This document shows positions 16,625 to 26,085 of a stretch of DNA of 64,000 bases, piece after piece. The DNA comes from Escherichia phage vB_Eco_slurp01, in the sequence record LT603033, one strand, 5' to 3'. A program made the position numbers and the translations under genes. Positions within the stretch are counted from its first letter, which is position 1. Every line of letters starts with the position of its first letter. Below the pieces are notes generated by a model, which saw only the letters and a program-made list of their open reading frames with translations, was not told the origin of the DNA and did no database searches.

Positions 16625-17059
16625 ATGACACGCATTAACTTAGTACACGTTAAAGAACTTGCTGACCAACATCTGATGGCTGAATATCGTGAACTCCCAC
16701 GTGTATTTGGTGCTGTACAAAAACACGTTCAAGCACGTAAGCGTGTACGTGATTTCAAAATTAACAGTACTTATCTGTTAGGTTCAGGTCATGTAACATT
16801 TTTCTACGACAAGTTACTGTACTTACAGAAGCGTCATATTGATATTGTCAACGAATGTCTGCGTCGTGGTATGAAGATTCAAAACACTGAAGTAAACGAC
16901 ATTAGCGGCTTCCCTGCTGAGTTTTGTAATGACTACATACCAACGGAGTCAGAGATTAAAATGTCTCGTGAACGTTTGATTGAGAAGCTCCAGATGAAGC
17001 CTACGTGGTATAAATTTACTGATGTTGAGTTACCTGAGTATTATCGTTCTATGATCTAA
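16625..17059 (+). CDS. denV: endonuclease V (pyrimidine-dimer DNA glycosylase/AP lyase)
   Basis: N-terminal MTRINL...[21 protein letters not shown] and ...[10 protein letters not shown]...PTWYK are near-identical to T4 endonuclease V as I recall it; RBS GAGAGGA. Confidence 0.9.
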
Positions 17060-17122
17060 AAAAAACATTAACACCAGTTTTATCTTTCAGTATCATGTAA
17101 CAAAGAAAATGAGGAATACAAC

Positions 17123-17482
17123 ATGGCATCTTTAAGTGAAATCGCAGAATACAACCCACTAACAATCTCAACAATTCAACGTACAAAAACTTTTTATTTC
17201 CGTCCTGCTGATGGATGGAAACGTGGAATGAATGGTGACTATCGAGTACTGGAAGATTCGCTCATCGAGCGTATCAACTCTGAACTACAGAAGTATGAAG
17301 GTGTTAAAGTTGTGCGTTCAACTTCTCGTTATTTTGAGTACTACATTGAGTCTTCAACTGTAAATGAAAACTCATCATTCTCGGTGGACAACACTGATAT
17401 TCTTCGTAATGCAGTTGGTTTGCTATGCAACATTGCAGAAGAAATGGGATTAACTATCGCCACAATGAGTGAGTTAGAATAA
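17123..17482 (+). CDS. hypothetical protein
   Basis: RBS GAGGAA; 119 aa. Confidence 0.65.
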   Translation: MASLSEIAEYNPLTISTIQRTKTFYFRPADGWKRGMNGDYRVLEDSLIERINSELQKYEGVKVVRSTSRYFEYYIESSTVNENSSFSVDNTDILRNAVGLLCNIAEEMGLTIATMSELE

Positions 17483-17488
17483 CATAAA

Positions 17489-17521
17489 GGGTTGACTTCG
17501 GTCAGCCCTTTTTGCTATAAT
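17489..17521 (+). promoter_or_regulatory. stem-loop/promoter hybrid (PeSL-like)
   Basis: GGGTTGACTTCGGTCAGCCC + TTTTT + TATAAT. Confidence 0.6.
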
Positions 17522-17547
17522 TATTTTATCGAAACGAGAGGTAATAC

Positions 17548-17787
17548 ATGAAACTATCTTTTATACGTTTAGCAGAATTCTTCGGTACTGATATAATTAC
17601 ATTACAACAAATTGCAGACAATACTTCATTAAGTACACAAGAAGTACTTGACTTGGATGTAATTAAGTGTGATAATACTTCCATCGATTACAAAGAAGGT
17701 CTTGTCGAAAAAGATAAGATTCAGGCTAAGATTAATGGTGCTGGACGGGTTCAGTACTGGAAAGGAGTTTTAAGTAATGCCAGCTAA
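17548..17787 (+). CDS. hypothetical protein
   Basis: RBS GAGAGG; 79 aa. Confidence 0.6.
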   Translation: MKLSFIRLAEFFGTDIITLQQIADNTSLSTQEVLDLDVIKCDNTSIDYKEGLVEKDKIQAKINGAGRVQYWKGVLSNAS

Positions 17788-19663
17788 ATTAACCCCTAAA
17801 CAAGCAAAAGAAAAATTCAACAATAAAGTATTAGAACATAACGTTCCAATTGAAGCTGATTATAGTAAGTATGAAAATGCCAAATTAAAAAACATCCAAG
17901 TAGTTTGCAATGATGTATTAAAACACAAATCAGGCATATCACAAGTATATCTTATGGATCACGCAAACCTCACACACCCATCTAAAAAATTTGGTTGTCC
18001 TGAATGTGAAGACTGGTATAATGGTCATGCTAAAAGTTTAGATATTTTAATTGTTAGGGAAAGAATTAATTCTTGGATTAGTACTTATGGTGGCATAATT
18101 GATACAGTTAGTGGTGAAGTTGAAGTTTATAAAAATAATTCAACAAAAATACCATATATTTGTAAAAATGGAACTAAAAAAACGCTTACTATTTCTACAC
18201 TGGGTGATGAAATCGGTTGTAATTGTTCTAAATGTAAATCTGAATTAATATCAGAAATCGAAGATAACAATGAATATACATCCATGACTACTGATGATGA
18301 TTGTGTTACAATTTCCCATTTTATATTTGGGGATGATGTTGCATTCTCGTGGATTTCACCATTGGAAATGAAAAAACATGGTTACGGTCTTGCCGAAAAA
18401 ATGAAAGAAAAAGCATTGTCGGTTGGTAAAAATATTATTGGATATGCAATATCATCTCTTAGTGAATGGAAAAATGAAAAAACTCCTGTAATAACGGAAC
18501 ACGAAGGAGTATTATATCGTATTTCCAGAGCATCATATTTGATCAATAATAATATAGTACATAGACCACATTATACAAAAAATAATTTTTTATATTATTT
18601 TTACAAATGTTCACCTAACAATCAACTTATTACACCAATCCTAATACCTGATGATGTTGGTACAAAAAAGAAAATTAAAGTATGTTATAAATCATGTGGG
18701 TGTGAATACGATATATCTGTGGACGTTATAATGAACAGAAATTTAAAAACTTGTGGAAACTGTAAAAATATAGATACTAAAACATTTATAGAAAAGTGCT
18801 TGGAGTTCAAATCAAGTGGAGAATATATCTATGATAGAGTAAACTATATAAATCAAAGTACACCTGTAACTATAGTTCATAAAATTTACGGAGAATTCAA
18901 AAGTACACCACAAAATCACTTAACACATTTAAAAAACAGTTTGAAATATGATACAGCTAACTTTAAAATAAAAAATCTAACTCAATTTAAAATTAAAGCA
19001 AATGAAGTTCATAATAACTTATATAATTATGATAAAGTTGATTATGTAAATTCTTCAACGAAAGTATTAATAACTCATCCAGTGTATGGAGACTTTTGGC
19101 AAACTCCAAATGGGCATTTGGCAGGTAAAGGACACCCGAAAGTCAAAGGTGGTGTTCCTTATACATGTGATGAATTTAAAATTAAAGCAAATGAAGTTCA
19201 TAATAACTTATATAATTATGATAAAGTTGATTATGTAAATTCTTCAACGAAAGTATTAATAACTCATCCAGTGTATGGAGACTTTTGGCAAACTCCAGCA
19301 AGTCACCTTTGTGGGTCTGGTCATCCACTTGCGGCTGGTCATTCTCAGCAATATGCATATATTCATAATATTTTGGATGGTGATTTATCTGTAGCATTGA
19401 AATATGGTATTGAAAAGCAGAAAGGTAAGAGGGTTATGCAGCAAAATAAAAAATCATTATTTAAAATTGAATCGTTACATACGTATTTTTTCACATCTGT
19501 GTTTGAGTGTAAGGAAGCTGAAAAAGAATGTAAAAAACTATTTGGTAAAGGCGTTTTAACTAAACAAGAAATGCCAGATGGTTATACTGAAACTACTACA
19601 CCAAACAACATAGATAAAATTATTGCAATCTATGAAAAATGGGGTGGGGTGAAAAAAAACTAA
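17777..19663 (+). CDS. Cys-rich repeat protein (628 aa), possible nuclease/homing-endonuclease-like
   Basis: RBS AAAGGAG; several CxxC/CxC clusters; at least three copies of a roughly 40-aa motif Y-x-YDKVDY-V-N-S-S-T-x-V-x-I-x-H-P-V-Y-G-x-F; function unverified. Confidence 0.65.
   Translation: MPAKLTPKQAKEKFNNKVLEHNVPIEADYSKYENAKLKNIQVVCNDVLKHKSGISQVYLMDHANLTHPSKKFGCPECEDWYNGHAKSLDILIVRERINSWISTYGGIIDTVSGEVEVYKNNSTKIPYICKNGTKKTLTISTLGDEIGCNCSKCKSELISEIEDNNEYTSMTTDDDCVTISHFIFGDDVAFSWISPLEMKKHGYGLAEKMKEKALSVGKNIIGYAISSLSEWKNEKTPVITEHEGVLYRISRASYLINNNIVHRPHYTKNNFLYYFYKCSPNNQLITPILIPDDVGTKKKIKVCYKSCGCEYDISVDVIMNRNLKTCGNCKNIDTKTFIEKCLEFKSSGEYIYDRVNYINQSTPVTIVHKIYGEFKSTPQNHLTHLKNSLKYDTANFKIKNLTQFKIKANEVHNNLYNYDKVDYVNSSTKVLITHPVYGDFWQTPNGHLAGKGHPKVKGGVPYTCDEFKIKANEVHNNLYNYDKVDYVNSSTKVLITHPVYGDFWQTPASHLCGSGHPLAAGHSQQYAYIHNILDGDLSVALKYGIEKQKGKRVMQQNKKSLFKIESLHTYFFTSVFECKEAEKECKKLFGKGVLTKQEMPDGYTETTTPNNIDKIIAIYEKWGGVKKN
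18974..19300 (+). repeat. perfect intragenic direct duplication (about 130 bp x2, separated by about 60 bp)
   Basis: AATTTAAAATTAAAGCAAATGAAGTTCATAATAAC...GGAGACTTTTGGCAAACTCCA occurs twice identically. Confidence 0.85.
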
Positions 19664-19669
19664 ACAAAA

Positions 19670-19702
19670 GGGTTGACTTCGGTCAGCCCTTTTTGTTATA
19701 AT
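19670..19702 (+). promoter_or_regulatory. stem-loop/promoter hybrid (PeSL-like)
   Basis: GGGTTGACTTCGGTCAGCCC + TTTTT + TATAAT. Confidence 0.6.
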
Positions 19703-19730
19703 TATTTCATCAACTGATGAGGATAACGAA

Positions 19731-20501
19731 ATGACCAGAGAAGCACGTAGCATTCAAATCCAGAAAAACTTCAACTCCATGATGGTTGCTCTTGAGTGTT
19801 TGCTCGATGATAGCAGTACTGTAAAAAGTATGGTTGTCAGTGGTGCTCCTGGTGTTGGTAAGACTTACACCCTGTCTAAACGCCTCCAGAAAGCTCATGA
19901 CGCAGCAGAATGGAACGTAGCTACCATCAGTGGTAAAATGACTACTCTGGCTCTGTACGAAGTTCTGTACAAGAATCGTCATAGCACCAACGTATTAGTA
20001 CTGGATGATATGGACAGCATCTTTGATTCAGAAGACGGTATGAACCTGCTCAAAGCAGTACTGGACAGCGGTAAACGTACTGTGTCTTACATGACTAGCT
20101 CTAAGTACTTAACCACTAACGGTATCCCTAACAGCTTTGATTTTAACGGTCGTATCGTATTCATCACTAACAAAGATTTAGCATTAGATGCTAAAGCTAA
20201 AACGAAAATGTCTGCTCACTATGCTGCTCTTATGTCTCGTTCTGTATACGTTGACTTACAGATTCAGACCAAAAGCGATATCATGATTCACATTGAGAAC
20301 GTGATGAATCAGACTAACATTTTAGAATCTAAGGGTATTAACCGTAATGGTAGTAAAGCAATTCTGAACTGGATGTTGAAGCACGAAGATTCTCTTCGTT
20401 CACCTTCACTGCGTATGCCACTGTTGATTTCGGCAGTATATAACAACAACCCATACGATTGGGAAGAGCAGTGCGAAAACTTGTTCCTTGAGAAAATTTA
20501 A
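19731..20501 (+). CDS. P-loop NTPase (AAA-like ATPase)
   Basis: Walker A GAPGVGKT and Walker B-like VLVLDDMD; RBS GAGGA. Confidence 0.7.
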   Translation: MTREARSIQIQKNFNSMMVALECLLDDSSTVKSMVVSGAPGVGKTYTLSKRLQKAHDAAEWNVATISGKMTTLALYEVLYKNRHSTNVLVLDDMDSIFDSEDGMNLLKAVLDSGKRTVSYMTSSKYLTTNGIPNSFDFNGRIVFITNKDLALDAKAKTKMSAHYAALMSRSVYVDLQIQTKSDIMIHIENVMNQTNILESKGINRNGSKAILNWMLKHEDSLRSPSLRMPLLISAVYNNNPYDWEEQCENLFLEKI

Positions 20502-20508
20502 TTCCATA

Positions 20509-20540
20509 TTGACAGTACTACCATAGTGTAGTACTATAAC
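20509..20540 (+). promoter_or_regulatory. sigma70-like promoter
   Basis: TTGACA + 17 bp + TACTAT upstream of membrane-protein array. Confidence 0.4.
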
Positions 20541-20566
20541 TTAATATTCACCACCGGAGATACGAT

Positions 20567-20905
20567 ATGCTTGAGTTTTTTAATTCAGATACAATGATTA
20601 GTATTACTTTGATTTATCTGTTTGGTTTTTTCTTTTATCATGCACTGGTTGTAGTACTGTGGTATTTTAAAAAGAAAATTGTTTTTAAACTGTATCCAGT
20701 AAGGAATTCATCACTAGTTCTTTACACACTAGTTCAAGGTTTGTTTGCAATTGTTGGTCTTATGGCACACTTAATTTATTGTGCCAATCCTCACTTGAAC
20801 TCAATCTCACAATATATTGTATTCTTTGGGTTGTTCATTTGGTTAGTTGTATACTTAATCCATCTCATTATTCATGGTAGAGATAAAATTCGCGGAGACT
20901 TCTAA
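20567..20905 (+). CDS. small membrane protein, family B member 1
   Basis: First of seven tandem hydrophobic ORFs of about 110-125 aa with basic C-termini. Confidence 0.6.
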   Translation: MLEFFNSDTMISITLIYLFGFFFYHALVVVLWYFKKKIVFKLYPVRNSSLVLYTLVQGLFAIVGLMAHLIYCANPHLNSISQYIVFFGLFIWLVVYLIHLIIHGRDKIRGDF

Positions 20906-21252
20906 TGTTTGAAGCTTATCTTGAGTTTTTAAAGAGTAGTTCTGTTGCACATTCAATTGCAGGGATTATTCTAACAGGTTATGTAACATTTTGGGTAGTT
21001 ATGTTTCTAGGATGGTATTTTAAACGACAATTCTATAAGCGTAATGGTGAAGATTTTATGAATTCTTTCATTAATCAATCGTTGTTTGCATCAACATTGA
21101 TAGCATGTATTGTAGCAACACTCACAGGAAAGGTACTGCCAGCATTCTCCGCAGTTTACGGTACATTGGGTATGATATGTGTAGTTTTTTACTTGACCAT
21201 TAAAATTTGTTGTGTTATGATTGAACTTCGAAATAAGATACCGGAGGAATGA
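20905..21252 (+). CDS. small membrane protein, family B member 2
   Basis: TAATG coupling; multi-helix hydrophobic; C-terminal LRNKIPEE. Confidence 0.6.
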   Translation: MFEAYLEFLKSSSVAHSIAGIILTGYVTFWVVMFLGWYFKRQFYKRNGEDFMNSFINQSLFASTLIACIVATLTGKVLPAFSAVYGTLGMICVVFYLTIKICCVMIELRNKIPEE

Positions 21253-21587
21253 TGGAGTACTTTATTGATTTACTGCCGTGGTATATGAAAGTTAGTACTT
21301 TGTACTATATTATTAGTGCTGGATTCTACTTTCTGATGTGGTTCTTTAAACGACCAATTTCAGTATTCATCGCTGATAACATGCTGCAATTAAAATTACA
21401 CGCATGGTTTGGTATGGCGATGATTATGCCTATTATTCACTACTCAATGATTAGTAGAGGTTTCCGTTCTAATGGTGAACCAATTGTATTAGTATTCTAT
21501 TGGGGTTCAACTATTGCATATGTAAGTTTGTTGTTGTTCCCAGTCGTTCATAAATTACGTGCTAAAGTCCCTGATGCGAGGTACTAA
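21249..21587 (+). CDS. small membrane protein, family B member 3
   Basis: ATGA overlap; C-terminal LRAKVPDARY. Confidence 0.6.
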   Translation: MMEYFIDLLPWYMKVSTLYYIISAGFYFLMWFFKRPISVFIADNMLQLKLHAWFGMAMIMPIIHYSMISRGFRSNGEPIVLVFYWGSTIAYVSLLLFPVVHKLRAKVPDARY

Positions 21588-21901
21588 TGGATATCGTAAC
21601 ATTGATTTACACGTTGTATTCATTCTATTTCATTATGTGTTGGGTTGGATTTTTATTTGTACTCAAGATGTTTGATTATGTTGAAAAACAGATAAAAGAA
21701 TTTTGTATTCCTTTTATCGGATCAACCATTATTAGTGTTTCTTGTGTGTATTTTTTGGTTTTTGAACCACCAGATAACACTGCAATGATTGACTTGATGT
21801 TACTACCAACAACTGTTACTTTTTTATGTAGTCTGATGCCGCCGATTAGCCGTGGACTAACAGAATTTAGACGCAACCAAAAGCGTAAACGAGGGATGTA
21901 A
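21587..21901 (+). CDS. small membrane protein, family B member 4
   Basis: TAATG coupling; hydrophobic. Confidence 0.6.
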   Translation: MDIVTLIYTLYSFYFIMCWVGFLFVLKMFDYVEKQIKEFCIPFIGSTIISVSCVYFLVFEPPDNTAMIDLMLLPTTVTFLCSLMPPISRGLTEFRRNQKRKRGM

Positions 21902-22269
21902 TGGAAATTGCTCTTATTATCTTAACTGCTATGCTGTTTATTAGTACTGTGGTTATAATTGGTAAATTCTTTTGTGTATCATTTTTAGAAACGGTATACG
22001 ATGAAATTGCTGATGATTATGAATTACAAGCCGGATTTTTCATTACGTATTGGCTTAGTTTATTTTGTCTAGTCATTGCTTGGATTTTACATATCTTTAA
22101 ATGGGGTATGGTAGACGGTGATCCTATTATGGCAATTATTGTTCTAGTGTTTGGTATCCTTGGTGGTGCAGTGCATAATCTAATGGTTATCTGGCAAACT
22201 GTTCAATATGTTTTGGTTCCCTATTTCGAAAAGATGCACAGTACAATTAAAAAACGTAAACGAGGTTAG
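21901..22269 (+). CDS. small membrane protein, family B member 5
   Basis: TAATG coupling; hydrophobic; C-terminal KKRKRG. Confidence 0.6.
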   Translation: MEIALIILTAMLFISTVVIIGKFFCVSFLETVYDEIADDYELQAGFFITYWLSLFCLVIAWILHIFKWGMVDGDPIMAIIVLVFGILGGAVHNLMVIWQTVQYVLVPYFEKMHSTIKKRKRG

Positions 22270-22270
22270 T

Positions 22271-22633
22271 ATGAACGGGATAGAATTATCTTTCGTTGGT
22301 CAATTACTAGTAATGGCGTATACATTTATCTTCTCACTGAATGCATTCGTGTGCATTGGGAAGTACTTCCATAAGCGACCATTATCAAATATATATGATG
22401 TAATCCAAAAGAGATATAGTCCAGCATATACTGTGTTGGGTACAGTATTCAATTTTGGTTTTATTGTATTAATAATTGGACTGTTCACATCCTCTTTGAA
22501 TACAATAACCTTCGGTCTTATGATATGTTCATTGGTATTAGCCGTAATTATATGTTGTTTAGTACTGCACCTTGTGGTACTATTGTATATAAAGATCTCT
22601 GAAATCCACCAACGTTTGGGTATGAGGAAATAA
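22271..22633 (+). CDS. small membrane protein, family B member 6
   Basis: ATG at 22271 with GAGG; hydrophobic. Confidence 0.55.
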   Translation: MNGIELSFVGQLLVMAYTFIFSLNAFVCIGKYFHKRPLSNIYDVIQKRYSPAYTVLGTVFNFGFIVLIIGLFTSSLNTITFGLMICSLVLAVIICCLVLHLVVLLYIKISEIHQRLGMRK

Positions 22634-22634
22634 T

Positions 22635-23006
22635 ATGAGTTACCGTGAGATATTTTCCATTATTTCAATTATTATGTTCAGTACTGGAACACTGGTATGG
22701 TTATTATACTTCTTCTGTATTAATCCAGTGTATAATATGTTATGTAATATTAAATCAAGTGCCGGATATATCACTTTTATGGTCTTTATGGGATATTATT
22801 GTCTAAGCATTTTAGGTGTTGTTTTGGTTGTTATATTTGATGTGGGACCAAATAGTGATGGTATGGAAATACATGAATTAATAACCATGTTTGGATGTAT
22901 GATACCAACAGCACTACTGTTTGTAGCTACTGGTAGTGGATTGATAAAATTATATAATTATTTAAAATCCATTCATAATTCCATTCATAATAAGCGTATG
23001 TCATAA
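22635..23006 (+). CDS. small membrane protein, family B member 7
   Basis: Hydrophobic; RBS GAGGAA. Confidence 0.6.
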   Translation: MSYREIFSIISIIMFSTGTLVWLLYFFCINPVYNMLCNIKSSAGYITFMVFMGYYCLSILGVVLVVIFDVGPNSDGMEIHELITMFGCMIPTALLFVATGSGLIKLYNYLKSIHNSIHNKRMS

Positions 23007-23047: not shown

Positions 23048-23710
23048 ATGATGAAAACAAAATTAGGTTTGTTTTATAAAAATTATTTCGTTAAACAGCG
23101 TAAATTTATAAAAAAATATTTCTCTGGTGAGAAGTCTAGTCCTATAATTTTTAAAAGACCAAGTTATAATACTTACTTAGCTGATGCTAAACAGTCTAAG
23201 AAATTTATTACTCTTTTAAATAAAAACAAAATTAAAGCTTCTTATGTTGAAACGAGAAGAAACTCATCAATAACTCCTGGTGATTTTATTGAGTACGGAT
23301 GTTTCAATATTAAGTATAATGATAATACATACTTTATGGATATTGATTGTAATACATCCAATCTTTTTAACATTGTAGTAAATCCATTAAAACAATATAA
23401 TGTTTATGGTGATTCTATTATCAAATTAATCAAAAACAAAGATGGCTTTGATTTTGAAATAAATGTTTTAGATGATAATTTTGACGAAGTACCCGTAAAC
23501 CCTGAAATCTGTGATATTTTAAACAGTTTAAAAGGTAGTACCTACAATATATCATCTGATTTAATGTTTCAGTACTCATTAATCCATAAAGATATTGAAA
23601 AGTATATTGAATGTTCCAAAATTTTGAATTATCTTTACGATGAATTTAAAAAGAGTTCTAAAATAACCGCATACACTTTGTACAATATTCCTAAAATGGT
23701 GAATCTTTGA
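23048..23710 (+). CDS. hypothetical protein (K/N-rich, very AT-rich)
   Basis: RBS AAGGAG; 220 aa; converges with minus-strand array. Confidence 0.6.
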   Translation: MMKTKLGLFYKNYFVKQRKFIKKYFSGEKSSPIIFKRPSYNTYLADAKQSKKFITLLNKNKIKASYVETRRNSSITPGDFIEYGCFNIKYNDNTYFMDIDCNTSNLFNIVVNPLKQYNVYGDSIIKLIKNKDGFDFEINVLDDNFDEVPVNPEICDILNSLKGSTYNISSDLMFQYSLIHKDIEKYIECSKILNYLYDEFKKSSKITAYTLYNIPKMVNL

Positions 23711-24843
23711 CAAATACAGTACTGGCAACTCCACCGTCTGTAATATATTGTCCAGTACTGTAAATTTGTATACCATCGGTTAAGTAAGTTCTGTATAAAG
23801 TTGCTGTAACATATACGTTATTCATATTCATCTCTATTGGTAGTACACATTTGGTATAGGCCGACACATCTGTTTGTGTACCTATACCCAATTGACCTGC
23901 GTTATCGCCTGTGTTATAACCAGTTGCGTAAACACCTAATGAAGTTATAATATGATTAGAAAAATATGAATAACCCACACTGCTTCTTATTATATCACCT
24001 GGTGCTTGTGTTGTTTGTCTTAACGAAATATATGTTTGTGATGTAGAACCATTTGCTAACTGACCAAAGTATTGTCCACCACCATGATATGCAAATAATT
24101 TATTAGTACTATTATTACTTGCTATAGCAAAAGCGAAGTAACTTGAGTTTGTTGTATAATCTTTCACCGTATAGGTATTAGTTATTTGAGAACATAACGT
24201 GTACTTTGAATATAACGTCATGTCGGTTGTACCTACGCCTGATATTGCACCAGTATAATACAATCTCCCATCGGTTCCAATAAATCCTTGCATAAGAAAA
24301 TTTGCCAGTATTTTGGATGGTGTTACTCCAGTAGGTACTGTTCCTTGTACAAATGATGAAAGTGAATCGGTACTTCTACCATTTCCCAGTTGTCCATAAC
24401 TACCATAACCCGTATTCCATATCGTGTTGTCTGTACATAATACGCTTAATGCACCTGCACTAACTGCAATTTGTTTTATTGTTTTTCCAAGTGCTGTTAT
24501 TCTATCAAACACTATCTTTGCAGAAGCCCACGTTGTTGACTTATCAGTTGATAAACCGAATGATGCACCATTTCCAGCATACCACATCGTATTATCTTTC
24601 TTTTTAATTAATGTTGACTCATACCCGAACCCATAGATCTTCTACGTTTGTATTGCACAAAACCCATTTGGTTTGTGTTATAATATTACCTATACCCATT
24701 TGCCCAAACTCTTGAGAGCCTCTACTGTACAACGTACCATCTGACATAAGGGCAAAAACTGTTGTATCAGATGAAGCTATTTTTGTTACAGAAGGTTGTA
24801 TGTTCTTTTTTGATGATGTGATAATTCTTCCAAAGGGTAGCAT
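23691..24843 (-). pseudogene. RCC1-like repeat protein paralog 1, frameshifted
   Basis: N-terminal fragment (24619..24843, MLPFGRIITSSKK...) and C-terminal fragment (23691..24587) in different frames; divergent N-terminal tag. Confidence 0.55.
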
Positions 24844-24915
24844 TGTATCCTCCAAATGTAAATCGTTATTATATTTAGGACAAAAAAATGCCAGTACAAG
24901 GCACTGGCATAAAAT
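24844..24915 (-). promoter_or_regulatory. inter-paralog cassette (hairpin + RBS)
   Basis: TGCCAGT-ACAAGGC-ACTGGCA hairpin upstream of paralog 1. Confidence 0.45.
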
Positions 24916-26085
24916 CTAAGCAGAAGGCATATCCTTCATTTTAATAAATGAAAATTGTGTACCAGTATTTGTGGTTTGATCAGTAAAATATGAATTACTA
25001 CCAGCCCAGTACAATTCATTATTAACTATACAATATATAACAGAACTCGAACTCTGTGAATACACACGACTTATATTTGATGGTTCCACTCCAGTACTGA
25101 ACTGAACCGAACCCAACTGTGAACTTGGTATCACATCAGTTGGTCTACCTAAACCATTAACACCAGCCCCACCACCACATGTATATACCCCAGTACTATC
25201 AGTTGATATATTAACATAACCATTCCCGGCATTTTCAAATAGTATTTCACTGGGAACAACACCAAATCCTGTAAGATCTATTTTCCTGAATGTAGTGTAA
25301 ACAGTAGAACCACCAACACCTCTTCCACCATAATCATTAGAACCAGCCATATAGATACTATATCCAGAACTTCCTAAACATAATAACTGTACGTTGTCAT
25401 ATAATATTTGCATAGATATAACGTTATCAGGAATACTCAATACCGTAAAAGTAGTTAAAGAAGAACTTCCAATATTACTACCAACCGATGTTCCACATCT
25501 GTAGTACTTACCGCCTTTTATATAATGGAACGATGAACCGCCTAACTTATGTGCTCCTATTGCACTTACCCCAGTATCTATAAGAATGGGAGATACAACT
25601 TTGTTATTAACACCTAACTCAGATCTACTGTTCATACCGAACCCATATAAACGACCATCTAACATCAATATTAGTGTACTACCGGAAGTACCCGCTGACG
25701 TAAATTCTATATTCTTTATTTGCGACACGTCAATACCTACAAATAATGAAGTTACTTCAGTCCAGTTAACATATGAACCACTAGCCCCAAAATATCCACC
25801 CATGTATAGACCTGCACAATATAACTTATTATCAACAGTCTTTATTAATGTACCGGATACACACGCCCAAAAATCATCAACTTCATAGGGTACATGTACC
25901 CAACCACCTAATACATCACTAGCATCCCCTGTACCTAATTTATAGTTCGAACCAGAACCACGCATGTACATATTCCCTGTACTATAAAGTAATCCGACAT
26001 GTAATTGACTACCATCCAATTTCTTTATTTCAGGAAGAGTTGGTTTAATATTTCCGTACTTTAACATTCTTCCAAAAGGTAACAT
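24916..26085 (-). CDS. RCC1-like repeat (beta-propeller) protein paralog 2
   Basis: 389 aa; N-terminus MLPFGRMLKYGNIKP; G/S/T/N/Y-rich repeats; RBS AAGGAGG. Confidence 0.8.
   Translation of the reverse strand: MLPFGRMLKYGNIKPTLPEIKKLDGSQLHVGLLYSTGNMYMRGSGSNYKLGTGDASDVLGGWVHVPYEVDDFWACVSGTLIKTVDNKLYCAGLYMGGYFGASGSYVNWTEVTSLFVGIDVSQIKNIEFTSAGTSGSTLILMLDGRLYGFGMNSRSELGVNNKVVSPILIDTGVSAIGAHKLGGSSFHYIKGGKYYRCGTSVGSNIGSSSLTTFTVLSIPDNVISMQILYDNVQLLCLGSSGYSIYMAGSNDYGGRGVGGSTVYTTFRKIDLTGFGVVPSEILFENAGNGYVNISTDSTGVYTCGGGAGVNGLGRPTDVIPSSQLGSVQFSTGVEPSNISRVYSQSSSSVIYCIVNNELYWAGSNSYFTDQTTNTGTQFSFIKMKDMPSA

What the first reader, a model, noticed from the sequence alone, without database searches (positions are those of the whole stretch)
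18974..19300. Perfect roughly 130-bp duplication inside the 628-aa Cys-rich repeat protein gene
Two identical copies (about 18974..19107 and 19169..19300) encode EFKIKANEVHNNLYNYDKVDYVNSSTKVLITHPVYGDFWQTP. A third diverged copy lies upstream (YIYDRVNYINQSTPVTIVHKIYGEFKSTPQNHL). Zero divergence at synonymous sites points to a very recent in-frame duplication or ongoing repeat expansion and contraction. The protein also carries several CxxC clusters, so it may be a modular DNA-binding or nuclease protein whose repeat number is evolving.
Basis: seen in the sequence. Interest (0 to 1): 0.5.

Follow-up and report, generated by a model that had tools for sequence, protein, structure and literature searches.

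The report
Repeat in a phage homing-endonuclease gene
A selfish nuclease gene of a giant E. coli phage carries two neighbouring DNA-binding modules whose cores are identical in DNA. This is a fresh example of the module reshuffling already described for this gene family, so it is real but ordinary.

Summary
The repeat is real. There are two perfect 125-nt copies, at 18984-19108 and 19173-19297, 189 nt (63 codons) apart, inside the 628-aa ORF 17777-19663.

The window is Escherichia phage vB_EcoM_phAPEC6 (Asteriusvirus). The gene is gp019c, a free-standing homing-endonuclease-type gene. Its C-terminal domain is a GIY-YIG/T5orf172-like nuclease, homologous to ICP1 Gp130. Upstream lie three CapR/DUF723/DUF4379-type modules that have lost their zinc ligands, and a Cys-bearing N-terminal half.

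The repeat is not a whole-unit tandem duplication. Only the module cores are identical. The 64-nt tails that follow are homologous in protein but unrelated in DNA: all six shared H-L-G-G-H-P residues use different codons. The best reading is that two old neighbouring modules had their cores homogenised recently by intragenic recombination or gene conversion.

The exact two-copy protein occurs in three independent records, and a fourth partial assembly also spans both copies, so it is not an artefact. One-copy alleles (phage A4, one metagenome, one Logan contig) and a frameshifted allele with an extra 77-nt partial copy (phage E9.1) suggest copy-number change. All come from short-read assemblies, so collapse is not excluded.

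Barth et al. 2023 already described repeated modules and in-frame repeat recombination in T5orf172 homing endonucleases. This is a new member of a known kind, of low to moderate interest.

The parts
17777..19663 (+). 628-aa free-standing homing-endonuclease-type gene (phAPEC6 gp019c, annotated 'exonuclease ABC C subunit')
   Evidence: ORF. The window is 100% identical to MK817115.1. PHROG 681 'endonuclease' E 8e-57. G+C is 0.25-0.32 against 0.35-0.44 in the flanks.
17777..18766 (+). N-terminal half (aa 1-330) carrying the CxxC clusters; probably degenerate zinc-ribbon modules
   Evidence: CPEC, CNCSKC, CYKSCGC and CGNC are read from the translation. The unit profile gives only faint matches at aa 29-45, 71-78 and 117-131. 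No Pfam hit. The N-terminus resembles P0263.
18770..18925 (+). Module R1 (aa 332-383), the diverged third copy
   Evidence: Unit profile E 5e-16. Aligns in register with canonical arrays. AlphaFold2 gives helix, hairpin, helix.
18971..19144 (+). Module R2 (aa 399-456) = core copy 1 plus its own tail
   Evidence: Unit profile E 6e-26. The core is 76% identical in DNA to repeat 3 of Yersinia phage phiR1-37 g151.
18984..19108 (+). Perfect repeat, copy 1 (module core, profile positions about 8-48)
19109..19172 (+). Unique 64-nt spacer: tail of R2 plus linker (NGHLAGKGHPKVKGGVPYTCDE)
   Evidence: Unrelated in DNA to the tail after copy 2 (34% identity; codon table). Found elsewhere only in phAPEC6 and E9.1. 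Absent, together with one repeat copy, from A4.
19173..19297 (+). Perfect repeat, copy 2 (core of module R3)
19163..19333 (+). Module R3 (aa 463-519)
   Evidence: Unit profile E 6e-25.
19346..19660 (+). C-terminal GIY-YIG/T5orf172-like nuclease domain (aa about 524-628). Invariant residues: Y528, K542, G544, R552, E582, D601, G602, E605, T606
17548..17787 (+). 79-aa gene whose stop overlaps the HEG start; transcribed with it as a two-gene cassette
   Evidence: PHROG 34150, function unknown. Absent together with the HEG from phage SP27. Conserved upstream of three different HEGs.
17485..17521 (+). Stem-loop terminator plus promoter element, upstream copy
   Evidence: (family D2).
19666..19702 (+). 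Stem-loop terminator plus promoter element, downstream copy; ends the cassette

Best explanation
The gene is a free-standing homing-endonuclease-type gene of the T5orf172 branch of the GIY-YIG superfamily.

Inferred mode of action: an array of small 'beads on a string' modules reads a long DNA target. The array has three Cys-bearing degenerate modules in the N-terminal half and three CapR/DUF723/DUF4379-type modules, R1-R3. The C-terminal GIY-YIG-like domain then cuts. In a mixed infection the break in a genome lacking the gene would be repaired from the HEG-carrying genome.

The finding itself is modules R2 and R3. They are two old, neighbouring modules, shown by their tails and linkers having diverged to saturation. 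Their 125-nt cores were made identical very recently by non-reciprocal intragenic recombination (gene conversion) between the paralogous modules.

Once identical, the two cores are a substrate for homologous recombination or replication slippage. Recombination between them removes exactly core plus spacer (189 nt, in frame) and gives the one-copy allele seen in A4-type genomes. A slippage-type event would give the out-of-frame 77-nt partial extra copy seen in E9.1.

Shown here: the repeat, its sharp limits, the codon contrast, the domain identities, the locus polymorphism, and the existence of the alleles in database records.

Inferred: gene conversion as the origin, the direction of change (two copies to one), DNA binding by zinc-free modules, nuclease and homing activity.
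For: Repeat and limits:
-.
- 41 of 41 core codons are identical. Among the 7 identical residues of the 22-aa tails only 1 codon is shared, and the six-residue motif H-L-G-G-H-P has 0 of 6 shared codons.

Origin of the alleles:
- The spacer has no other source in 50,697 phage records, so an A4-like allele cannot generate it.
- A4 is exactly 189 nt shorter and has the same outer junctions.
- E9.1 has A[1-77] placed before a full copy, which splits the ORF into 449 + 193 aa.

The two-copy allele is real:
- The exact 628-aa protein is in phAPEC6, phage slurp01 and an E. coli assembly (L008) that differs from the window at 8 of 7887 sites.
- Partial protein P0125, from another assembly, also reads core-spacer-core.

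Module identity:
- Custom unit profile; alignment with canonical arrays.
- 76% DNA identity to phiR1-37 g151 repeat 3, whose repeats pass Pfam DUF4379, CapR and DUF723.
- Of 41 proteins sharing the C-terminal domain (one being the window protein itself), 30 match CapR.

Nuclease:
-.

HEG behaviour:
- Empty site in SP27, and other HEGs in the same slot in PBECO4 and GCA_024674815.
- Low G+C.

Literature:
- CapR binds DNA in EMSA (PMC8096241).
- T5orf172 HEGs carry repeated CapR/DUF723 modules. Recombination between repeats gave an in-frame 228-bp deletion in ICP1 gp174 (PMC10448857).

Family-wide pattern:
- Module cores are more alike within a protein (mean 0.56) than between proteins (0.45). 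13 of 135 arrays have two cores at least 90% identical.
Against: - No intermediate allele was found with a diverged R2 or R3 core, so conversion is inferred from the pattern alone.
- All one-copy alleles and the E9.1 allele come from short-read assemblies. Copy-number polymorphism could be partly an assembly effect.
- The window protein fails every Pfam and NCBIfam model.
- R1-R3 lack the zinc ligands, and mutating those ligands abolishes DNA binding in CapR.
- No cleavage site or homing event is known for this gene.
Confidence: 0.7

Rival explanations
1. Simple recent tandem duplication of one whole 63-codon module, with nothing else involved.
For: The spacing is an exact multiple of three (189 nt) and equals one module period. 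Divergence within the repeat is zero.
Against: Only 125 of the 189 positions of the period are identical, and identity falls to 20-34% immediately outside. The two tails are homologous but share 0 of 6 codons in the conserved motif. A recent duplication cannot leave 64 nt saturated next to 125 nt untouched.
Confidence: 0.07
2. The second copy was brought in from another homing-endonuclease gene by recombination between genes, either paralogues in the genome or genes of a co-infecting phage, rather than by conversion within the gene.
For: Exchange of DNA-binding modules between separate HEGs is reported for this family (PMC10448857). The same genomic slot holds HEGs with the same nuclease domain but different arrays (P0132, 77% identical in the C-terminal domain). 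The core is 76% identical to a module of a Yersinia phage gene.
Against: No donor with this core or spacer was found, either in the window or in 50,697 phage records. A single crossover between genes sharing one core gives one copy, not two. The donor would already need the core-spacer-core arrangement.
Confidence: 0.15
3. Assembly artefact: the phAPEC6 genome really has one copy and the duplication was created by the assembler.
For: phAPEC6 was assembled from Illumina MiSeq reads only, with Shovill (PMC7247149). A Logan contig 100% identical to the window over 7.7 kb has one copy.
Against: The spacer is unique sequence that an assembler cannot invent. The exact two-copy protein is in three independent records, and a fourth partial assembly spans core-spacer-core. 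E9.1 also has both copies. Assemblers collapse repeats far more often than they create them. Several E. coli assemblies break contigs inside this repeat, as expected for a true repeat.
Confidence: 0.03
4. The gene no longer homes. It is a domesticated derivative, acting as a DNA-binding regulator or as a nuclease aimed at a competitor such as a satellite or another phage, and the module change adjusts that target.
For: Relatives have been co-opted in this way: CapR as a repressor (PMC8096241). PMC10448857 states that homing cannot be inferred from sequence alone. The zinc ligands are lost in R1-R3.
Against: All residues invariant in 41 family members, including Tyr, Arg and Glu at GIY-YIG catalytic positions, are retained. 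Presence/absence and replacement at one slot, and low G+C, are typical of an active or recently active HEG.
Confidence: 0.15

Closest known systems
T5orf172-family homing endonuclease genes of Vibrio phage ICP1 (Gp53, Gp121, Gp130, Gp165, Gp174) and relatives, as described by Barth, Dunham and Seed 2023 (PMC10448857)
   Same: - C-terminal nuclease domain homologous to ICP1 ORF130/Gp130 (36% identity, E about 1e-10, 93% coverage).
- N-terminal array of repeated CapR/DUF723/DUF4379-type modules.
- Variable presence between related phages.
- Intragenic repeats that recombine in frame (gp174, 228-bp deletion).
   Different: - The host is a 350-kb Asteriusvirus of E. coli.
- The window protein does not reach any Pfam threshold.
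- Its three clear modules lack the zinc ligands.
- The repeat is perfect over 125 nt, whereas the ICP1 repeats are described as degenerate.
- The identity covers only the module core.
CapR of the V. cholerae satellite PLE (Netter et al. 2021, PMC8096241) and Pfam PF21817 / PF05265 / PF14311
   Same: Same small module type: helix, beta-hairpin, short helix or knuckle. 30 of 41 proteins sharing this nuclease domain match PF21817.
   Different: CapR is a stand-alone repressor with CxxC...CxC ligands that are needed for DNA binding. Here the corresponding positions are H, Y, H and V/A, and no Pfam model matches.
Yersinia phage phiR1-37 g151
   Same: Its third repeat is 76% identical in DNA to the repeated core, and the tail motif is similar (NRHIAGNGCPKC against NGHLAGKGHPKV).
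   Different: It has four canonical zinc-ligand modules, and its nuclease part resembles Vsr/PD-(D/E)XK rather than GIY-YIG.
I-TevI and the Seg proteins of phage T4 (GIY-YIG homing endonucleases)
   Same: GIY-YIG-type catalytic fold joined to a modular DNA-binding region. The Seg proteins share the free-standing lifestyle between phage genes.

Membership tests
T5orf172 / GIY-YIG superfamily nuclease domain | Match to Pfam PF10544 (T5orf172) or PF13455 (MUG113) above threshold | tested here: not met
   No hit for the whole protein or for aa 508-628, even at E up to 10. Only 4 and 2 of 41 proteins sharing the domain give weak hits (best E 7.5e-4 and 2.4e-3).
T5orf172 / GIY-YIG superfamily nuclease domain | GIY-YIG fold (beta-beta-alpha-beta-alpha core) | tested here: met
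T5orf172 / GIY-YIG superfamily nuclease domain | Conserved Tyr (first strand), Arg and catalytic Glu | tested here: met
   Y528, R552 and E582 are invariant in 41 sequences, together with K542, G544, D601, G602, E605 and T606. Assigning them to the GIY-YIG catalytic roles is inference from position.
T5orf172 / GIY-YIG superfamily nuclease domain | Sequence homology to a protein curated as a T5orf172 HEG | tested here: met
   tblastn of aa 508-628 hits ICP1 ORF130 / 'tcgB putative homing endonuclease' at 35.7-36.6% identity, E 2e-10 to 3e-11. Gp130 is used as a T5orf172 HEG representative in PMC10448857.
T5orf172 / GIY-YIG superfamily nuclease domain | Nuclease activity | not testable with these tools
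   Needs purified protein.
CapR / DUF723 / DUF4379 repeat module | Match to PF21817, PF05265 or PF14311 | tested here: not met
   None at E up to 10 with the local Pfam copy. The collection's precomputed table lists PF05265 for this protein cluster, without a score.
CapR / DUF723 / DUF4379 repeat module | Homology of the unit to canonical units | tested here: met
   A profile of units from other proteins, with the window protein excluded, gives E 5e-16, 6e-26 and 6e-25 for R1-R3. The units align in register. 76% DNA identity to a canonical unit of phiR1-37 g151.
CapR / DUF723 / DUF4379 repeat module | Four zinc ligands (C...H...CxxC or CxxC...CxC) | tested here: not met
   In R1-R3 the aligned positions are H, Y and then H..V / H..A, or absent. 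The same loss is seen in arrays P0002, P0007, P0012, P0024, P0137 and P0132.
CapR / DUF723 / DUF4379 repeat module | Compact independently folded module | tested here: inconclusive
CapR / DUF723 / DUF4379 repeat module | Sequence-specific DNA binding | not testable with these tools
   Shown only for CapR itself (PMC8096241).
Free-standing homing endonuclease gene | Presence/absence or replacement at a fixed site between conserved genes in related genomes | tested here: met
   SP27 lacks the gene and the 79-aa gene. PBECO4 (379 aa) and GCA_024674815 (373 aa) carry other HEGs, starting at the same ATG. 76 related records match the flanks but only 3 carry this gene.
Free-standing homing endonuclease gene | Cleavage of the HEG-less allele and biased inheritance | not testable with these tools
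   Needs phage crosses and cleavage assays.
Simple tandem duplication | Identity over the whole period | tested here: not met
   125 of 189 positions are identical. Tandem Repeats Finder finds nothing.

The most novel reading that the evidence does not exclude
The identity tract covers exactly the module core and spares the knuckle and linker. This could reflect a regular way in which these nucleases change target: cores are copied or swapped between modules while the scaffold stays. In that reading, the zinc-free modules (here and in many metagenomic arrays) would be a distinct, functional, metal-independent DNA-reading module, whose number varies within phage populations and retargets the nuclease.
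Probability: 0.12. Interest if true: 0.5.

Novelty: new member of a known kind. Interest (0 to 1): 0.25.

Why it matters
It gives a clean, datable example of how the DNA-reading array of a phage homing endonuclease is remodelled. The core of one module was copied onto its neighbour, and the resulting perfect repeat predicts in-frame loss of a module.

If the one-copy and two-copy alleles are both real, they form a natural pair for asking how one module changes target choice.

The practical point is for assembly. A 125-nt perfect repeat inside a gene breaks or collapses short-read assemblies of these 350-kb phages. Several E. coli assemblies end contigs inside it.

The principle itself is already published for ICP1 and related phages, so it changes no general view.

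Tried and rejected
- Pfam and NCBIfam scans of the whole protein and of three sub-regions found nothing meaningful.
- The word-indexed protein search with the C-terminal domain found a single relative. The exhaustive search was needed.
- A profile of the C-terminal domain against PDB sequences gave no credible hit (best E 0.12).
- A search for a source of the 64-nt spacer found only phAPEC6 and E9.1.
- A search for further copies of the repeat, the module or the nuclease domain in the window found none.
- Tandem Repeats Finder found no array.
- I could not establish which phage the run ERR1546644 comes from. The only paper mentioning slurp01 just cites it. Whether the Logan one-copy contig is a collapse therefore stays open.
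- Whole-unit tandem duplication and a false duplication by the assembler were considered and rejected (see rival explanations).

Full report
**Where the window comes from**

The region 17000-20600 is 100% identical to Escherichia phage vB_EcoM_phAPEC6 (MK817115.1, reverse strand), a 352.6-kb Asteriusvirus. The ORF 17777-19663 (628 aa) is gp019c, annotated 'exonuclease ABC C subunit'.

**The observation**

- The repeat is a perfect 125-nt direct repeat at 18984-19108 and 19173-19297, 189 nt (63 codons) apart.
- It cannot be extended by a single base on either side. The 64 nt to the left of the two copies are 20% identical and the 64 nt to the right are 34% identical.
- The shared peptide is FKIKANEVHNNLYNYDKVDYVNSSTKVLITHPVYGDFWQTP. 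The residue before it is Q in copy 1 and E in copy 2.
- The diverged third copy reported upstream is real (aa 332-383).

**What the gene is: database searches**

- Pfam and NCBIfam give nothing for this protein. PHROGs places it in 'endonuclease' families.
- A search of the 5.8-billion-protein collection returned 202 relatives. Nearly all carry PF05265 (DUF723) and PF14311 (DUF4379), often PF21817 (CapR). They consist of 3-12 repeats of a roughly 60-aa unit followed by one of several nuclease domains.

**What the gene is: the modules**

- A profile built from canonical units of other proteins hits the window protein three times: aa 332-383, 399-456 and 463-519 (E 5e-16, 6e-26, 6e-25).
- These three modules align in register with canonical arrays.
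- The zinc ligands of the canonical unit (C in 'IIC', H in 'HG', 'GCxxC') are replaced here by H, Y and 'GHPKV' / 'GHPLA'. That explains the Pfam failure.
- The same ligand-free variant ('IIDPEYGEFWQ.P..HL.G.G.P.R') fills whole arrays in several metagenomic proteins.
That half shows only faint traces of the same unit.

**What the gene is: the C-terminal domain**

- The last 121 aa have 547 relatives in the 1.84-billion representative library.
- Invariant residues are Y528, K542, G544, R552, E582, D601, G602, E605 and T606.
- tblastn links the domain to 289 phage records. These include ICP1 ORF130 / 'tcgB putative homing endonuclease' (36% identity, E about 1e-10), which Barth et al. use as a representative T5orf172 homing endonuclease (PMC10448857).
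- Of 41 proteins sharing the domain (one being the window protein itself), 30 match CapR, 11 DUF723, 10 DUF4379, 4 T5orf172 and 2 MUG113.
- I therefore call it a T5orf172-like GIY-YIG domain. The Pfam criterion itself is not met.

**The locus behaves like a homing-endonuclease slot**

- The gene has 25-32% G+C against 35-44% in its neighbours.
- Of 76 related phage records that match the flanks, only phAPEC6, A4 and E9.1 carry this gene.
- SP27 has neither it nor the upstream 79-aa gene. SP27 also has one copy of a stem-loop terminator / promoter element that occurs on both sides of the cassette in phAPEC6 (17485-17521 and 19666-19702).
- PBECO4 carries a 379-aa HEG in the same place. An E. 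coli-associated contig (GCA_024674815) carries a 373-aa one. The latter has a 77% identical nuclease domain but a different four-module array.
- Similarity between these genomes stops exactly at the HEG start codon, which overlaps the stop of the 79-aa gene.

**How the repeat arose**

A tandem duplication of the 189-nt period would make 189 positions identical; only 125 are.

The identical tract corresponds to profile positions 8-48, the core of the module. The C-terminal knuckle and the linker are excluded.

The two tails are clearly homologous in protein: NG**HL**A**G**K**GHP**KV and AS**HL**C**G**S**GHP**LA. Yet every one of the six shared residues uses a different codon, whereas 41 of 41 core codons are identical.

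The tail of R2 also resembles the tail of the homologous unit in Yersinia phage phiR1-37 g151 (NRHIAGNGCPKC). The core of that unit is 76% identical in DNA to the repeat. Core and spacer therefore belong together natively.

R2 and R3 are thus old neighbouring modules, and only their cores became identical recently. The simplest cause is gene conversion between the paralogous modules. Import from another gene is possible, but no donor exists in the window or in 50,697 phage records.

**Alleles in relatives**

| Source | State |
|---|---|
| phAPEC6, phage slurp01, E. coli assembly L008 | exact two-copy 628-aa protein; L008 differs from the window at 8 of 7887 sites |
| Partial protein P0125 from another assembly | reads core-spacer-core |
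| Phage A4 (about 3% diverged) | exactly one core plus the spacer missing (189 nt, in frame); the same outer junctions |
| ENA metagenome protein P0130 (A4-like) | one copy |
| Logan contig of run ERR1546644 | one copy; otherwise 100.000% identical to the window over 7.7 kb |
| Phage E9.1 (99.9% identical over the part of the gene that aligns) | both copies plus an extra tandem copy of the first 77 nt; ORF split into 449 + 193 aa |

The spacer cannot be produced from a one-copy allele. The one-copy form is therefore best explained as a deletion by recombination between the identical cores.

**How far the alleles can be trusted**

- phAPEC6 is MiSeq plus Shovill (PMC7247149).
- A4 is MiSeq plus metaSPAdes with default settings (PMC9355613).
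- Logan assemblies use short k-mers (my own knowledge, not tested here).
- Several E. coli assemblies end contigs inside the repeat.

The two-copy state is therefore secure. The one-copy and E9.1 states may be real or may be assembly effects. I could not test this without reads.

**Family context**

Across 135 arrays, module cores are more similar within a protein (mean 0.56) than between proteins (0.45). In 13 arrays two cores are at least 90% identical in protein. The 373-aa HEG in the same slot has four 175-nt units that are 81-91% identical in DNA. Homogenisation or recent duplication of modules is thus a general habit of the family, and phAPEC6 is the extreme case.

**Comparison with the literature**

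- Netter et al. 2021 showed that CapR binds DNA, that its cysteines are needed, and that it derives from ICP1 homing endonucleases (PMC8096241).
- Barth, Dunham and Seed 2023 showed that T5orf172 HEGs usually carry one or several CapR/DUF723/DUF4379-type modules 'like beads on a string'. They also showed that repeats inside these genes recombine, citing an in-frame 228-bp deletion in ICP1 gp174 and duplications in other phages (PMC10448857).
- The present case fits that description. New here are the host (a jumbo coliphage), the perfect core-only identity tract, and the zinc-ligand-free modules.

**Verdict**

This is a new member of a known kind, with interest about 0.25.

Noticed in passing
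window 17485-17521 and 19666-19702: Near-identical composite elements: a 12-bp-stem terminator hairpin whose stem contains TTGACT, followed 18 nt later by TGnTATAAT. They bracket the [79-aa gene + HEG] cassette. Phage SP27 has a single copy and lacks both genes. The same element precedes the 256-aa gene in BF17 and PBECO4. It resembles the promoter-stem-loop cassettes known from T4-type phages (my recollection, not tested).
   Followed up: partly
window 17777; L004 2277; L011 2501: Three different homing-endonuclease genes (628, 379 and 373 aa) occupy the same slot in related genomes. Inter-genome similarity ends exactly at the ATG that overlaps the stop of the conserved 79-aa gene. The 373-aa and 628-aa proteins share the nuclease domain (77% identity) but not the DNA-binding array.
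   Followed up: partly
L003 4422-4500 (phage E9.1): An extra tandem copy of the first 77 nt of the repeat sits directly before copy 1. It shifts the frame and splits the gene into 449-aa and 193-aa ORFs. This is either decay of the gene or a misassembly.
   Followed up: partly
L007 (Logan contig of run ERR1546644): A 25-kb contig has no mismatch to the window over 7.7 kb except for loss of exactly 189 nt (one core plus the spacer). It may be a de Bruijn collapse of a two-copy genome. The origin of the run could not be established.
   Followed up: partly
proteins P0002, P0007, P0012, P0024, P0051, P0132, P0137, P0139: These are whole arrays of the same module without any zinc ligands (consensus IIDPEYGEFWQ.P..HL.G.G.P.R), joined to GIY-YIG-like or other nuclease domains. 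They look like a metal-free subfamily of the DUF723/CapR module. I did not find it described in the two papers read.
   Followed up: partly
L005 2073-3830 (Yersinia phage phiR1-37 g151): It is annotated 'exonuclease ABC C subunit', like phAPEC6 gp019c. However, its nuclease part gives weak, sub-threshold hits to Vsr and MTES_1575 rather than GIY-YIG. The shared annotation probably spread through the repeat modules.
   Followed up: no
window 20567-23006: A head-to-tail run of at least seven small ORFs (112-141 aa) with hydrophobic, membrane-protein-like sequences. It looks like a tandem paralogue family.
   Followed up: no
window 23048-23710: A 220-aa ORF lies in the lowest-G+C stretch of the region examined (0.24-0.28). 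It was not characterised and could be another recently acquired gene.
   Followed up: no
window 23691-26085, minus strand: Two large ORFs (298 and 389 aa) rich in Gly/Ser/Thr repeats with recurring 'GxLGxG'-like motifs. The phAPEC6 paper mentions RCC1-domain proteins in this genome (PMC7247149). Not checked.
   Followed up: no
window 16625-17059: A T4 endonuclease V (DenV, pyrimidine-dimer glycosylase) homologue lies two genes upstream. It is annotated as such in the record and hits PF03013 in related loci.
   Followed up: no
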